Part shown: positions 23,769 through 64,000 of the stretch, piece after piece | Numbering within the stretch: position 1 is the stretch's first letter | How the letters are laid out: each line of letters starts with the position of its first letter | Origin: Escherichia coli | GTDB lineage: Bacteria; Pseudomonadota; Gammaproteobacteria; Enterobacterales; Enterobacteriaceae | Direction: 5' to 3' (one strand) | DNA length: 64,000 nt | NCBI RefSeq assembly: GCF_016026235.1 | Contig: NZ_CP065613.1 | The notes under the pieces: generated by a model | Seen by the model: only the letters and a program-made list of their open reading frames with translations | The model's database searches: none | What the model was told of the DNA's origin: nothing | Position numbers and translations under genes: made by a program

Positions 23769-24554
23769 TTAGTGCCGGTGATAGCCATCGACCATGCTTT
23801 TAAAGGTTTCGTGTGGCGTACGCCCCGTGGTGCAAAGATAAAGATGACCGAAGATAAAAAAGAGGCTTATAAATGCCAGAGCAAAATGCGCCTGCAATAA
23901 CCAGTATCTTACGCCAGGAAACACATCTCCCACGGCTTGCGGATAGAGACACAACAGCCCCGTCAATAGTAACAACGGCAGCAATCCATACATGACACCA
24001 ACATAGGCGACCTGCTGTAAGGGATTAAATTTAGACTGGCTTGTTGCCGGGAAAGGATGTTCTTCCCCCTGCATAATGCCAAACAAATAAAATCGCGTTT
24101 GTTTTGCCGCTCGTTCCAGCCACCCCTGACGACGAATGCGATAGTGGTGACCATTATCCCCAACGGCATTGATCAGCACAAAGCCGAGCCAGCATGCCAG
24201 TAACAAAAATCCGCAAACTTCATGCACCGCAACCAGACTTTTAACCGCAGTTGCGCCCACCAGCGCAAAGTGATTTATCAGCCCACTTGCCAGCAACAAT
24301 ACAAAGAGTAACGCATTCGACCAGTGCCATAATCTGACCGCTTTGCTGTAAAGATAAATCTTCTCACCATGATCGGTGGCTGATTTCTTCACGCCACGAG
24401 CACGAAGCAAGGCGTGCAGCCCCAGCACCAACCACATCCCAACCAGCAATACTCCGGCAATGATCAACCACACCGGCCAAAATTCGGGAGTGAACTGTGG
24501 CACATAGTTCGCTAACTGGCTCTGAAACTGTTCAGCATGTTGCGACGGGTTCAT
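23769..24554 (-). CDS. ydhU: Membrane cytochrome b-like subunit (PhsC/NrfD-like) YdhU
   Basis: 261 aa hydrophobic ORF with conserved His residues; operon position. Confidence 0.8.
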   Translation of the reverse strand: MNPSQHAEQFQSQLANYVPQFTPEFWPVWLIIAGVLLVGMWLVLGLHALLRARGVKKSATDHGEKIYLYSKAVRLWHWSNALLFVLLLASGLINHFALVGATAVKSLVAVHEVCGFLLLACWLGFVLINAVGDNGHHYRIRRQGWLERAAKQTRFYLFGIMQGEEHPFPATSQSKFNPLQQVAYVGVMYGLLPLLLLTGLLCLYPQAVGDVFPGVRYWLLQAHFALAFISLFFIFGHLYLCTTGRTPHETFKSMVDGYHRH

Positions 24555-25219
24555 ACATTTTCCTTTTTAATCAAATGTTGACCGAACCGGCGATACAGAT
24601 GCGGTTTCCCGGCACCAGGTAGCTGATATTGATAGTATTTATTATCCTGCAACCACGCCTGAATTTCTGGGCTATCTTCGCGACCAAAGATCAATGCGTG
24701 TTCCGGACAGGCGCTGACGCAAATGGGCGGAAAGCCTTTTGCCAGTCGGGACTCAGCGCAGAAATCACATTTATCTGCCACTTTAGTGACAGGGTTAAGG
24801 TAGCGAACCTGGTACGGACAAGCGCCAATGCAATAACTGCAGCCGATGCACTGCGATTTTTCTACCCGCACGATCCCCTGCTCATCACGCCACGACGCCC
24901 CTGTCGGGCATACGTCGATGCACGGAGCATCTTCGCAGTGCTGACATGACTGGCGAAAAAAGTGATACTGCGTTTCGTTGTCGTTATCGGTGACTGGAAT
25001 GTGTGCTATCGATAAACGGCTTCCCTGAGCGGGGACGTGGTTAGTTTTACGGCATGCGCGGGCGCAAATATTACAGCCATTGCACCGTGACTCGTCATGA
25101 ATCATGGCATACCGAACTTCCTTTTCTTGCCTCGTGTTCGCTAACAGAGAAGACGCAGAACCAGTAAAAAAGATTACTGTTCCCATCCCCAGAACAAATT
25201 TGCGTCGAGTGAAGGACAT
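24551..25219 (-). CDS. ydhX: 4Fe-4S ferredoxin-type subunit with Tat signal, YdhX
   Basis: MSFTRRKFVLGMG twin-arginine motif, four CxxCxxCxxxCP clusters; start chosen at Tat-signal Met (ORF extends to 25270). Confidence 0.82.
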   Translation of the reverse strand: MSFTRRKFVLGMGTVIFFTGSASSLLANTRQEKEVRYAMIHDESRCNGCNICARACRKTNHVPAQGSRLSIAHIPVTDNDNETQYHFFRQSCQHCEDAPCIDVCPTGASWRDEQGIVRVEKSQCIGCSYCIGACPYQVRYLNPVTKVADKCDFCAESRLAKGFPPICVSACPEHALIFGREDSPEIQAWLQDNKYYQYQLPGAGKPHLYRRFGQHLIKKENV

Positions 25220-25282
25220 CTGATTATCCCCTAATGCAGTGGCTGCAACTGTCCACCCTATCCATGACATCTCCCTGAAATT

Positions 25283-28906: not shown

Positions 28907-29146
28907 TTAAAATTACAAAGCAAGAAATTATAAGTGAACTGATATTTATTATCATTTGAAATAAATTTAACTTAAGCGACAATTATTTGTGACGTTCATT
29001 GCAGAAAATAAAAATAATATTATCGTTATAAATTAAAATACATACCGCAATTCGTATAATTTCAGCAGTTGTTATTTAGAATGATTAACTGGACCGCAAC
29101 TGAAGCAAGAATATCAGGATGAAGCTTACCGCCTCATCCTGAATGG

Positions 29147-38600: not shown

Positions 38601-38646
38601 CGATTTACCTCACTTCATCGCTTTCAGCGTATAACAGCATGTTAGT

Positions 38647-38659
38647 GATAATGATTATC
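38647..38659. promoter_or_regulatory. Fur box in sufA promoter
   Basis: GATAATGATTATC, strong match to Fur consensus core, ~50 bp upstream of sufA ATG. Confidence 0.7.
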
Positions 38660-38891
38660 AGTTCAACCCAGCAAACGCAGGGGCTTTACCGTAAAACATG
38701 CTTTTTGCCTGCTTTTAATAAGCATAGACCCTGATGTGTAGGTTAACAGGCACGCTAAGAATTAGGTATCTCATTGTTAGATAATGGTTATTATCTAAGG
38801 GCATTAAGGCTGTGATGAAAAAGAAAAAGTTGTATTGAAAATGACTATTTAAGAGATAGGTAAAAAAGTGCAGCGTTCAGAAATAAGAAAA

Positions 38892-61658: not shown

Positions 61659-62492
61659 ATGGATAATGCTGTTGATCGCCACGTTTTTTATATTTCTGAT
61701 GGTACGGCAATAACTGCGGAGGTATTAGGACACGCAGTAATGTCACAATTTCCCGTCACTATCAGCAGCATTACGCTGCCGTTTGTCGAAAATGAGAGCC
61801 GTGCACGGGCAGTGAAGGATCAGATTGACGCAATTTATCACCAGACAGGCGTGCGCCCGCTGGTCTTCTACTCCATCGTGTTGCCGGAGATTCGCGCCAT
61901 CATCTTGCAAAGTGAAGGCTTTTGCCAGGATATCGTTCAGGCGCTGGTTGCCCCGCTACAACAAGAGATGAAACTGGATCCAACGCCGATTGCTCATCGT
62001 ACCCATGGCCTTAACCCTAATAATCTCAATAAATATGATGCGCGCATTGCGGCGATTGATTACACCCTCGCCCACGATGACGGCATTTCGTTGCGCAATC
62101 TGGATCAGGCTCAGGTGATCCTGCTCGGTGTTTCTCGCTGTGGTAAAACCCCCACCAGTCTGTATCTGGCAATGCAATTTGGTATCCGCGCGGCAAACTA
62201 CCCCTTTATTGCCGACGATATGGATAATCTGGTGCTACCCGCGTCGCTCAAACCGCTTCAGCATAAATTGTTCGGCCTGACTATCGACCCGGAACGTCTG
62301 GCGGCGATTCGCGAGGAACGTCGGGAGAACAGTCGCTATGCCTCGCTTCGTCAGTGCAGGATGGAAGTCGCGGAAGTGGAAGCCTTGTACCGTAAAAATC
62401 AGATCCCGTGGATTAACAGTACCAATTATTCGGTAGAAGAGATTGCCACCAAGATCCTCGATATCATGGGCCTTAGTCGCCGAATGTACTAG
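61659..62492 (+). CDS. ppsR: PEP synthase regulatory kinase/phosphorylase
   Basis: 277 aa; divergent from ppsA. Confidence 0.9.
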
Positions 62493-62648: not shown

Positions 62649-63695
62649 ATGAACAGAACTGACGAACTCCGTACTGCGCGTATTGAGAGCCTGGTAACGC
62701 CCGCCGAACTCGCGCTACGGTATCCCGTAACGCCTGGCGTCGCCACCCATGTCACCGACTCCCGCCGCAGAATTGAAAAAATACTGAATGGTGAAGATAA
62801 GCGACTGTTGGTCATTATTGGCCCCTGCTCGATCCACGATCTCACCGCTGCAATGGAGTACGCCACCCGTCTGCAGTCGCTGCGCAACCAGTACCAGTCA
62901 CGGCTGGAAATCGTAATGCGCACCTATTTTGAAAAACCACGAACTGTTGTCGGCTGGAAAGGGCTAATCTCCGATCCGGATTTAAACGGCAGCTATCGGG
63001 TAAATCACGGTCTGGAGCTGGCGCGCAAATTACTTTTACAGGTAAATGAGCTGGGCGTCCCAACCGCGACTGAGTTCCTCGATATGGTGACCGGTCAGTT
63101 TATTGCTGATTTAATCAGTTGGGGCGCGATTGGCGCACGTACTACCGAAAGTCAGATCCACCGTGAAATGGCTTCGGCACTCTCCTGTCCGGTAGGTTTT
63201 AAAAATGGTACCGATGGCAATACGCGGATTGCTGTGGATGCTATCCGCGCAGCCCGCGCCAGCCATATGTTCCTCTCGCCAGACAAAAATGGTCAGATGA
63301 CCATCTATCAGACCAGCGGCAACCCGTATGGCCACATTATTATGCGTGGCGGCAAAAAACCGAATTATCATGCCGATGATATCGCCGCAGCCTGCGATAC
63401 GCTGCACGAGTTTGATTTACCTGAACATCTGGTGGTGGATTTCAGCCACGGTAACTGCCAGAAGCAGCACCGTCGCCAGTTAGAAGTTTGTGAGGATATT
63501 TGTCAGCAAATCCGCAATGGCTCTACGGCGATTGCTGGAATTATGGCGGAAAGTTTCCTGCGCGAAGGAACGCAAAAAATCGTCGGCAGTCAGCCGCTCA
63601 CTTACGGTCAATCCATTACCGACCCGTGTCTGGGCTGGGAAGATACCGAACGCCTGGTCGAAAAACTCGCCTCTGCGGTAGATACCCGCTTCTGA
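62649..63695 (+). CDS. aroH: DAHP synthase, Trp-sensitive
   Basis: 348 aa from MNRTDELRTARIESLVTPAEL... Confidence 0.93.
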   Translation: MNRTDELRTARIESLVTPAELALRYPVTPGVATHVTDSRRRIEKILNGEDKRLLVIIGPCSIHDLTAAMEYATRLQSLRNQYQSRLEIVMRTYFEKPRTVVGWKGLISDPDLNGSYRVNHGLELARKLLLQVNELGVPTATEFLDMVTGQFIADLISWGAIGARTTESQIHREMASALSCPVGFKNGTDGNTRIAVDAIRAARASHMFLSPDKNGQMTIYQTSGNPYGHIIMRGGKKPNYHADDIAAACDTLHEFDLPEHLVVDFSHGNCQKQHRRQLEVCEDICQQIRNGSTAIAGIMAESFLREGTQKIVGSQPLTYGQSITDPCLGWEDTERLVEKLASAVDTRF

Positions 63696-63701
63696 ATGCG
63701 T

Positions 63702-63729
63702 GCCCATTCCTGACGGAATGGGCATTTCT
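63702..63729 (+). terminator. Terminator after aroH
   Basis: GCCCATTCC TGAC GGAATGGGC followed by ATTTCTG. Confidence 0.65.
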
Positions 63730-63784
63730 GCGCAACTTGTTGTCTTCTCAACAAATTACTGCTTGCTCTGGTCTGCCATAATAT

Positions 63785-63803
63785 TGATAATAAGAATCAT
63801 TGT
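63785..63803. promoter_or_regulatory. Fur-box-like sequence upstream of ydiE
   Basis: TGATAATAAGAATCATTGT ~25 bp upstream of ydiE ATG. Confidence 0.5.
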
Positions 63804-63826
63804 TATATCAATTATTATTAATCTTT

Positions 63827-64000
63827 ATGCGTTATACGGATAGCAGAAAACTCACGCCTGAAACGGACGCCAATCACAAGGCTGCTTCCCCGCAGCCCAT
63901 CCGGCGAATTACCAGCCAGACACTGTTAGGTCCGGATGGCAAACTGATTATCGATCATGACGGGCAAGAATATCTGCTCCGTAAAACTCAGGCTGGCAAG
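63827..64000 (+). CDS. ydiE: HemP-like small protein YdiE, 3' end beyond window
   Basis: [18 protein letters not shown]..., open to window end. Confidence 0.8.

What the first reader, a model, noticed from the sequence alone, without database searches (positions are those of the whole stretch)
63785..63803. Fur-box-like AT-rich palindrome directly upstream of hemP-like ydiE
TGATAATAAGAATCATTGT overlaps the likely -10 region of ydiE, consistent with iron-responsive control of a HemP-family small protein.
Basis: partly seen in the sequence, partly recalled or inferred. Interest (0 to 1): 0.2.

Follow-up and report, generated by a model that had tools for sequence, protein, structure and literature searches.

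The report
Known Fur operator at ydiE promoter

Summary
The 19-mer is at the stated coordinates in an E. coli chromosome, in the aroH–ydiE/hemP spacer. The best Fur-box register is one base to the right: 63786-63804, GATAATAAGAATCATTGTT, 15/19 to the consensus. The 7-1-7 core, 63785-63799, scores 12/14. It is the second-best Fur match in 64 kb. Only sufA, a classical Fur target, scores higher. Shuffles give P≈0.003 for the spacer.

The box is the conservation peak of the spacer: 35 of 37 orthologous loci from about 14 enterobacterial genera carry a ≥15/19 box at the same position, and its GATAAT is invariant. A conserved TTG lies 17 bp upstream, so the box probably doubles as the -10.

Published ChIP-exo peaks (PMC10164565) map to window 63795-63807. 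The same study reports ydiE derepressed in Δfur in 8 of 9 strains, and aroH unchanged in the two K-12 strains checked. Salmonella ydiE behaves the same way (PMC3212961).

Verdict: a genuine Fe-Fur operator that represses ydiE by promoter occlusion. It is already known and of low interest. Still open are the exact transcription start, the BL21 exception and what YdiE does.

The parts
63786..63804 (+). Primary 19-bp Fur box GATAATAAGAATCATTGTT (15/19 to the consensus). With the flanking T63785 and A63805 it forms the 21-bp unit of two overlapping 7-1-7 repeats.
   Evidence: It is the conservation peak (1.65 bits per column) across 36 unique orthologous sequences, with T at position 0 in 35/36 and A at position 20 in 31/36.
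63785..63799 (.). 7-1-7 inverted-repeat core TGATAAT-A-AGAATCA (12/14).
   Evidence: One of only 3 sites at >=12/14 in the window (shuffle mean 0.26).
63780..63798 (+). Overlapping Fur-box match shifted 6 bp upstream (AATATTGATAATAAGAATC, 14/19). Typical of hexamer arrays.
   Evidence: Flank positions -5 to 0 are conserved.
63804..63822 (.). Weaker second Fur-like site (TATATCAATTATTATTAAT, 12/19). It covers the conserved element T.ATT.T[CT]ATT at box positions 24-34 (window 63809-63819).
   Evidence: The best second-site match starts at box position 19 in 24 of 36 orthologs.
63795..63807 (.). Window equivalent of the published Fur ChIP-exo peak (-32 to -20 from the ATG in W3110 and BL21).
   Evidence: PMC10164565 supplementary file 3, mapped onto NC_007779 and NC_012971. 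The K-12 box is identical to the window's.
63763..63768 (+). Candidate -35 hexamer TTGCTC, 17 bp upstream of GATAAT (inferred).
   Evidence: TTG at this position in 33/36 orthologs. A further 3 have it shifted by 1 nt.
63786..63791 (+). Candidate -10 hexamer GATAAT, which is also the first hexamer of the Fur box (inferred).
   Evidence: Invariant in 36/36 orthologs. The promoter was not called by the consensus scan because the E. coli -35 matches only 3/6.
63801..63809 (+). Alternative extended -10-like element TGTTATATC (TGnTAnnnT in other genera). A possible second promoter, also inside the Fur-covered region.
   Evidence: 21/36 orthologs match TGnTAnnnT. E. coli has C at the -7 position.
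63827..64000 (+). ydiE/hemP coding sequence, cut by the window end. The full CDS is 192 nt and would end 18 nt beyond the window.
63701..63724 (+). aroH terminator-like hairpin (10-bp perfect stem, 4-nt loop, then TTTCT). It separates aroH from the ydiE promoter.
   Evidence: I3. In the two K-12 strains checked, aroH changed by only -0.48 and +0.54 log2 units in Δfur while ydiE was strongly derepressed.
62649..63695 (+). aroH (Trp-sensitive DAHP synthase), the upstream neighbour and syntenic anchor in all orthologous loci.

Best explanation
The element is the operator of the ferric uptake regulator Fur at the promoter of ydiE, a 63-aa HemP/HmuP-family protein.

When iron is sufficient, Fe2+-Fur dimers bind the 21-bp unit at 63785-63805. 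They probably spread over the adjacent weaker hexamers, covering roughly 63780-63822. That region contains the gene's -10 hexamer (GATAAT, the first hexamer of the box) and the likely transcription start, so RNA polymerase is excluded and ydiE is silent. When iron is scarce, apo-Fur leaves and ydiE is transcribed as a single-gene unit. aroH upstream is insulated by its own terminator, and selO downstream is convergent.

Shown here or in cited data: the sequence match, its statistical significance, conservation across genera, in vivo Fur occupancy and Δfur derepression.

Inferred: the exact promoter and start site, occlusion as the mechanism, and the number of Fur dimers bound.
For: - The sequence is present and scores 15/19 on the 19-bp consensus and 12/14 on the 7-1-7 model.
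- It is the second-best Fur match in 64 kb, behind the sufA operator, which serves as an internal positive control.
- Shuffle P is 0.003 for the spacer and 0.012 for the AT-rich core.
- Loci were selected only on a coding-sequence motif, so the upstream region was not part of the selection. 35/37 orthologous loci directly downstream of aroH in about 14 genera have a >=15/19 box at a fixed distance, against a background of 6 such positions in 284,842.
- The box is the conservation peak: 1.65 bits per column against about 0.3 in the distal flanks. GATAAT is invariant and a conserved TTG lies 17 bp upstream.
- ChIP-exo peaks assigned to ydiE were retrieved for six of the nine strains (MG1655, W3110, 042, BL21, Sakai, CFT073). 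The two I mapped, W3110 and BL21, both fall at -32 to -20 from the ATG, equivalent to window 63795-63807. The paper lists ydiE in the core regulon shared by all nine strains.
- The K-12 box is identical to the window's.
- Δfur log2 fold changes for ydiE are 2.87, 8.14, 5.24, 2.91, 7.08, 3.20, 2.23 and 5.16 in 8 strains. aroH changed by -0.48 and +0.54 in the two K-12 strains.
- ydiE sits in the core Fur regulon and in the Fur-1 and Fur-2 iModulons.
- Salmonella ydiE is 7.4-fold up in Δfur, has a predicted site and has earlier binding evidence.
Against: - In BL21, ydiE goes down in Δfur (-1.10 log2) although a ChIP-exo peak is present.
- No transcription start is mapped, so overlap with the -10 is an inference. 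The E. coli -35 matches only 3/6, and the consensus promoter scan called nothing on the + strand.
- The central positions of the E. coli box (AAG) deviate from the GAT found in most other genera, so affinity may be lower than in relatives.
- Direct in vitro footprinting of this E. coli site was not found in the searchable literature.
Confidence: 0.95

Rival explanations
1. The match is a chance by-product of an AT-rich promoter or spacer (17% GC core) and has no specific regulator.
For: The core is extremely AT-rich and Fur boxes are AT-rich. In core-only shuffles a >=14/19 match arises in 5.6% of trials.
Against: - A >=15/19 match arises in only 1.2% of core shuffles and 0.3% of spacer shuffles.
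- The specific G and C positions of the box (G1, C13) are invariant or nearly so across genera, while the flanks drift.
- ChIP-exo peaks and Δfur derepression are published.
Confidence: 0.01
2. The conserved element is primarily the site of another AT-binding or Fur-family regulator (H-NS, Fis, IHF, Zur, MntR). The Δfur effect would then be indirect, for example through iron status.
For: AT-rich DNA attracts nucleoid proteins. The Salmonella table lists Rcs as another published regulator of ydiE. A conserved ACAAATAA block upstream of the -35 is unexplained.
Against: - Fur was cross-linked directly at this position in several strains.
- The conserved pattern is exactly the Fur 7-1-7/19-bp pattern, including the flanking T and A.
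- The same scan recovers sufA and ydhY, two other Fur ChIP-exo sites, and nothing else at >=12/14.
Confidence: 0.03
3. Fur binds here but its role is not simple repression. The BL21 result could mean Fur acts positively or by anti-silencing in some backgrounds, or that the site mainly controls the convergent ydiE-selO transcript overlap.
For: BL21 shows -1.10 log2 in Δfur despite a peak. BL21 carries a T-to-A change at box position -3, which is T in 35/36 orthologs. ydiE-selO is listed as a convergent 'excludon' pair.
Against: Eight of nine strains show strong derepression, and Salmonella does the same. The box position over the -10 and start region is the classical repressor geometry. selO (ydiU) changes by only 0.32 log2 units in MG1655 and 1.6 in W3110.
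Confidence: 0.03

Closest known systems
Classical E. coli Fur box (19-bp GATAATGATAATCATTATC; reinterpreted as two overlapping 7-1-7 repeats or as an NATWAT hexamer array) at iron-repressed promoters such as sufA, fepA, fhuA and iucA
   Same: - 15/19 on the 19-bp consensus and 12/14 on the 7-1-7 model.
- An overlapping 6-bp-shifted match is present.
- The box lies over the -10 and start region.
- In vivo Fur occupancy and Δfur derepression are published.
- Geometry matches the sufA operator in the same window.
   Different: - The central triplet is AAG instead of GAT in Escherichia.
- The 3' end is TTGTT rather than TTATC. This non-consensus G is itself conserved (32/36), which suggests a second constraint such as an extended -10 TG.
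- Nothing is mechanistically different.
Fur-regulated hemP at the head of haem-uptake operons (Yersinia hemPRSTUV, Chromobacterium chuPRSTUV, Stenotrophomonas hemP-hemA)
   Same: A HemP/HmuP-family small protein whose promoter carries a Fur box and is induced by iron limitation or fur deletion.
   Different: Here the gene stands alone between aroH and the convergent selO, with no haem receptor or transporter genes adjacent. This synteny holds across Enterobacteriaceae. The function of E. coli YdiE is uncharacterised, and structures 4YNX and 2LOJ exist without an assigned function.

Membership tests
Fur operator (Fe2+-Fur binding site of the enterobacterial Fur regulon) | Match to the 19-bp consensus GATAATGATAATCATTATC well above background | tested here: met
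   15/19 at 63786-63804. It is the second-best site in 64 kb. Shuffle P is 0.003 for the spacer.
Fur operator (Fe2+-Fur binding site of the enterobacterial Fur regulon) | 7-1-7 inverted repeat TGATAATnATTATCA, with overlapping copies | tested here: met
   12/14 at 63785-63799 and 10/14 at 63791-63805. Only 3 sites in the window reach >=12/14, against a shuffle mean of 0.26.
Fur operator (Fe2+-Fur binding site of the enterobacterial Fur regulon) | Position overlapping the core promoter or start site of the regulated gene | tested here: inconclusive
   The conserved TTG-N17-GATAAT arrangement (33/36 and 36/36) places the -10 inside the box. No experimental start site was found, and the consensus scan did not call the E. 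coli promoter.
Fur operator (Fe2+-Fur binding site of the enterobacterial Fur regulon) | Occupied by Fur in vivo | tested here: met
   Published ChIP-exo peak coordinates were mapped onto the sequence. W3110 1791295-1791307 and BL21 1733997-1734009 both equal -32 to -20 from the ATG, equivalent to window 63795-63807. Peaks assigned to ydiE are also listed for MG1655, 042, Sakai and CFT073. This is data from PMC10164565, not a new experiment.
Fur operator (Fe2+-Fur binding site of the enterobacterial Fur regulon) | Target gene derepressed in a fur mutant or under iron limitation | tested here: met
   From the literature: +2.2 to +8.1 log2 units in 8 of 9 E. coli strains, with BL21 the exception at -1.10. 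Salmonella shows 7.4-fold.
Fur operator (Fe2+-Fur binding site of the enterobacterial Fur regulon) | Evolutionary conservation of the site relative to its flanks | tested here: met
   35/37 orthologous loci have a >=15/19 box. The box carries 1.65 bits per column, against about 0.3 in the distal flanks.
Fur operator (Fe2+-Fur binding site of the enterobacterial Fur regulon) | Direct metal-dependent binding in vitro (EMSA or footprint) | not testable with these tools
   No in vitro study of the E. coli ydiE site was found in the searchable library.
HemP/HmuP family (Pfam PF10636), for the downstream gene | Significant match to the family profile | tested here: met
   PF10636, E=3.7e-15, 55.9 bits against a cutoff of 25, covering residues 27-63. 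NCBIfam NF007559 equivalog scores 133.8 bits. PDB 4YNX is YdiE.
HemP/HmuP family (Pfam PF10636), for the downstream gene | Genetic linkage to, and regulatory action on, a haem receptor or uptake operon | tested here: not met
   The gene lies between aroH and selO in E. coli and in the other Enterobacteriaceae loci, with no haem-uptake genes adjacent. A regulatory role for YdiE itself is untested.

The most novel reading that the evidence does not exclude
The operator itself is known. The least ordinary reading the evidence leaves open concerns what it controls. YdiE could be a stand-alone, Fur-gated small regulator or haem/iron-trafficking protein that feeds back on iron-uptake receptors such as FhuA, in bacteria lacking a linked haem-uptake operon.

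Supporting hints: overexpressing YdiE protects BL21 from the FhuA-dependent phages T5 and CEV2, and HemP/HmuP relatives act as regulators of TonB-dependent receptor genes.

A smaller open point is that the conserved non-consensus G at box position 17 may reflect a second, extended -10 promoter embedded in the operator.
Probability: 0.2. Interest if true: 0.4.

Novelty: already known. Interest (0 to 1): 0.1.

Why it matters
It adds little. Fur control of ydiE has been reported from E. coli ChIP-exo and Δfur transcriptomes and from Salmonella, and ydiE is listed in the core Fur regulon.

The value of this check is confirmatory. It fixes the register of the box, shows that the box is the conservation peak of the aroH-ydiE spacer across about 14 genera, and proposes the promoter geometry, with the -10 inside the box. 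It also shows that a simple 7-1-7 scan recovered the three loci in this window with published Fur ChIP-exo peaks (ydhY, sufA, ydiE) and nothing else at that threshold.

The open biology is the function of YdiE, not its regulation.

Tried and rejected
- The consensus promoter scan found no + strand promoter in 63500-64000. It found only a 9/12 match on the - strand (63806 to 63778) inside the palindromic box. No - strand gene lies downstream of that match, because aroH is on the + strand, so I read it as a by-product of the AT-rich dyad.
- The first attempt at ortholog start codons used the first in-frame ATG. It ran through the Fur box in 5 loci and falsely suggested that the box was missing. 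I fixed this by anchoring on the coding motif.
- I tried to read the original K-12 Fur ChIP-exo paper under a PMC id recalled from memory (PMC4167408), but no paper is held under that id.
- Searches for a mapped ydiE transcription start found nothing usable.
- I did not build an independent Fur PWM from curated sites, because fetching each site would have used too many calls. I used the published consensus and the 7-1-7 model instead, with shuffles and the sufA control.
- Other high-scoring 19-mers lie inside coding sequence in the ydhU-ydhX region: 24140 (15/19), inside the - strand ORF 23769-24554, and 24625 (14/19), inside the - strand ORF 24551-25270. I treated both as chance.
- I did not run the large protein searches, structure prediction or a metagenome scan, because the question was settled without them.

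Full report
**Origin and anatomy.** The end of the window is an E. coli chromosome. Bases 63400-64000 match 5,422 of 5,426 complete E. coli genomes and cover the 3' end of aroH and the start of a gene annotated hemP, which is ydiE in K-12. The local order is ppsR (61659-62492), aroH (62649-63695) and ydiE/hemP (ATG at 63827). The ydiE coding sequence runs 18 nt past the window end, and beyond it lies the convergent selO. The ydiE product is 63 aa. It matches Pfam PF10636 (hemP) at 55.9 bits against a cutoff of 25, and it matches the NCBIfam equivalog for this protein. Solved structures exist (4YNX, 'uncharacterized protein YdiE', and 2LOJ) without an assigned function.

**The observation.** TGATAATAAGAATCATTGT is at 63785-63803 exactly as stated. 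I scored every 19-mer of the window, on both strands, against the classical Fur consensus GATAATGATAATCATTATC. The best local register is one base to the right, 63786-63804 (GATAATAAGAATCATTGTT, 15/19). A second overlapping match lies 6 bp upstream (63780-63798, 14/19), and weaker 12/19 matches lie at 63804 and 63811. The full unit is therefore the 21-mer 63785-63805. As a palindrome it is imperfect: 5 of 7 dyad pairs hold in the 7-1-7 core, and a looser 20-nt-arm dyad (70% complementary) is centred on 63798.

**Chance.**
- The window has 4 positions at >=15/19, against 0.135 expected from dinucleotide-preserving shuffles.
- A >=15/19 match arises in 0.3% of shuffles of the 132-nt aroH-ydiE spacer, and in 1.2% of shuffles of its 17%-GC core alone.
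- The only better site in the window (38641 at 16/19, with 38647 at 15/19) lies in front of sufA, a textbook Fur target. This serves as an internal positive control.
- On the 7-1-7 model only three sites in 64 kb reach >=12/14 (shuffle mean 0.26): 28940 upstream of ydhY, 38646 at sufA and 63785 at ydiE. All three loci carry published Fur ChIP-exo peaks.

**Related sequences.** I scanned one genome per species for a degenerate DNA pattern encoding the HemP C-terminal motif G-Q-x-Y-L-L-R-x-T-Q-A-G-K-L, so selection did not depend on the upstream region. The scan returned 40 loci from about 14 genera of Enterobacteriaceae, including Escherichia, Salmonella, Citrobacter, Cedecea, Raoultella, Atlantibacter, Siccibacter, Superficieibacter, Pseudocitrobacter and Dryocola.

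All but two of the 37 loci with enough flank had aroH detectably just upstream, so they are positional orthologs; the other two are too short on that side to show it. Of these 37 loci, 35 carry a >=15/19 Fur box at a fixed distance from the coding motif (-161 to -184). The remaining 284,842 positions of the same loci hold only six such matches. The two exceptions are one 14/19 box and one Cedecea colo locus in which the 5' part of the region appears to be lost.

I anchored 36 unique sequences on the box and measured conservation in bits per column:

| Region relative to the box | Bits per column |
|---|---|
| 31-70 nt upstream | 0.34 |
| 1-30 nt upstream | 0.83 |
| Fur box (19 bp) | 1.65 |
| 1-30 nt downstream | 0.72 |
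| 31-60 nt downstream | 0.30 |

GATAAT (box positions 1-6) is invariant. The T before the box (35/36) and the A after it (31/36) are conserved, as the 21-bp model predicts. A second conserved element, T.ATT.T[CT]ATT, occupies box positions 24-34.

**Promoter geometry (inferred).** A TTG lies exactly 17 bp upstream of GATAAT in 33 of 36 orthologs; the E. coli hexamer is TTGCTC at 63763-63768. The simplest reading is a sigma-70 promoter, TTGCnn-N17-GATAAT, whose -10 is the first hexamer of the Fur box.

The consensus scan did not call this promoter, because the E. coli -35 matches only 3/6. An alternative, or an additional promoter, is an extended -10 TGnTAnnnT at box positions 16-24. It is present in 21/36 orthologs, but E. 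coli has TGTTATATC, with C at the -7 position. This alternative would explain why the non-consensus G at box position 17 is conserved in 32/36. Either promoter lies inside the Fur-covered region. I found no published start site.

**Published experiments.** A nine-strain study (PMC10164565) lists ydiE in the core Fur regulon, which it defined from ChIP-exo binding plus differential expression, and places it in the Fur-1 and Fur-2 iModulons.
- Its supplementary tables give intergenic peaks assigned to ydiE in MG1655, W3110, 042, BL21, Sakai and CFT073.
- I mapped the W3110 peak (1791295-1791307; ATG at 1791327) and the BL21 peak (1733997-1734009; ATG at 1734029) onto the records. Both lie at -32 to -20 from the ATG, equivalent to window 63795-63807, and overlap the box by 10 bp.
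- For sufA, the same table's 13-bp peak abuts the predicted box, overlapping it by 3 bp. So the agreement is within the resolution of the method.
- The K-12 box is identical to the window's.
- Δfur versus wild-type log2 fold changes for ydiE are 2.87, 8.14, 5.24, 2.91, 7.08, -1.10 (BL21), 3.20, 2.23 and 5.16. aroH changes by -0.48 in MG1655 and +0.54 in W3110.
- In Salmonella Typhimurium, ydiE is 7.4-fold higher in Δfur, has a predicted Fur site and has earlier binding evidence (PMC3212961).

**Mechanism.** The best-supported account is classical Fur repression. Fe2+-Fur binds the 21-bp unit, probably together with the neighbouring weaker hexamers, across the -10 and start region. This excludes RNA polymerase, and iron limitation releases it. 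The sequence match, its significance, conservation, in vivo occupancy and Δfur derepression are shown here or in the cited data. The promoter assignment, occlusion as the mechanism and the number of Fur dimers are inferred. Confidence is 0.95.

**Rivals.**
- Chance AT-richness is excluded by the conserved G and C positions, the shuffles and the ChIP-exo data.
- A different AT-binding regulator acting as the primary ligand is unlikely, because Fur was cross-linked at the site and the conserved pattern is the Fur pattern.
- A non-repressive role is suggested only by BL21. That strain has a T-to-A change at box position -3 (window equivalent 63782), a position that is T in 35/36 orthologs. I did not test whether this explains the anomaly.

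**Comparison with known systems.** The element works like, and passes the tests for, a standard enterobacterial Fur operator. The one untested feature is in vitro binding. Fur-controlled hemP genes head haem-uptake operons in Yersinia, Chromobacterium and Stenotrophomonas. Here the gene is solitary, with no linked haem-uptake genes, and that arrangement is conserved across Enterobacteriaceae. In other proteobacteria HemP/HmuP proteins regulate haem-receptor genes, although the reported mechanisms conflict. E. coli YdiE has no established role. One screen found that overexpressing it protects BL21 from the FhuA-dependent phages T5 and CEV2.

**Verdict.** The feature is already known. Interest is 0.1.

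Noticed in passing
window 38641-38665: The strongest Fur box in the window (16/19 and 15/19 overlapping; 7-1-7 match 14/14 at 38646-38660) lies in front of sufA. The published W3110 ChIP-exo peak abuts it, overlapping by 3 bp.
   Followed up: yes
window 28935-28959 (also 29071-29089): A Fur-like site TGATATTTATTATCA (13/14 on the 7-1-7 model; 14/19 and 13/19 on the 19-mer) lies about 257 nt upstream of the ydhY start (28683, - strand). The ydhYVWXUT operon has intergenic Fur ChIP-exo peaks in 042 and BL21, and ydhV and ydhY are in the Fur-2 iModulon.
   Followed up: partly
L001 8797-8820 (about 2.4 kb beyond the window end, inside the 5' end of ydiV): A recurrent published Fur ChIP-exo peak labelled 'ydiU/ydiV intragenic' maps onto a 14/19 Fur-like box, CAGAATGATAAAGATTCTC, inside the first codons of ydiV (the anti-FlhDC factor).
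   Followed up: partly
window-equivalent 63782 (L045, BL21(DE3) NC_012971 1733851-1734250): BL21(DE3) has T-to-A at box position -3, which is T in 35/36 orthologous sequences. BL21 is also the only one of nine strains where ydiE decreases in Δfur, despite a ChIP-exo peak. A causal link is untested.
   Followed up: no
window 63801-63809: The non-consensus G at Fur-box position 17 is conserved (32/36). In 21/36 orthologs it forms TGnTAnnnT, a possible extended -10 second promoter embedded in the operator. E. coli has TGTTATATC, with C at -7.
   Followed up: partly
window 63752-63759 and orthologous columns -33 to -26 relative to the box: A conserved ACAAATAA-like block lies just upstream of the candidate -35 (ACAAATTA in E. 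coli). It could be an UP-element-like A-tract or a site for another factor. Unexplained.
   Followed up: no
window 63806-63778 (- strand): The only consensus promoter-like hit in the region is on the minus strand inside the box (ATAACA-17-TATTAT, 9/12). No minus-strand gene lies downstream of it, so it is probably a by-product of the AT-rich dyad.
   Followed up: no
window 63808-63826: There is no recognisable Shine-Dalgarno sequence before the ydiE ATG (…AATTATTATTAATCTTT-ATG). The leader is short and A/U-rich.
   Followed up: no
L008, L009, L033, L038, L043: In several genomes the first in-frame ATG lies inside or upstream of the Fur box. Naive ORF calling therefore gives HemP a spurious N-terminal extension such as 'MIMIIIVKLIV…', which is a translation of the operator.
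   Followed up: yes
L010 (Cedecea colo NZ_SOYS01000009.1): The hemP homolog here has no Fur box. aroH ends only 195 nt before the C-terminal motif, and the motif reads YLLS instead of YLLR. The gene may be decaying or rearranged.
   Followed up: no
L037 (NZ_POTZ01001146.1, 417 nt): A 417-nt, low-coverage contig filed under Streptomyces sp. NTH33 carries the enterobacterial hemP motif. It is probably assembly contamination.
   Followed up: no
window 63400-64000: This segment is 99.8% identical to a handful of strains (for example 90-3040 and 2013C-3492) but only 95-99% identical to 5,413 of the 5,422 matching E. coli genomes, whereas the sufA segment is >=99% identical to about half of them. 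The aroH-ydiE allele in this window is therefore a minority one.
   Followed up: no
window 63827-64000 and convergent selO (L001 6623-8059): The ydiE stop and the selO stop are only 3 nt apart and the genes converge. The pair is listed as an overlapping-transcript 'excludon' in PMC12288877. Separately, YdiE overexpression protects BL21 from phages T5 and CEV2 (PMC7553319).
   Followed up: partly
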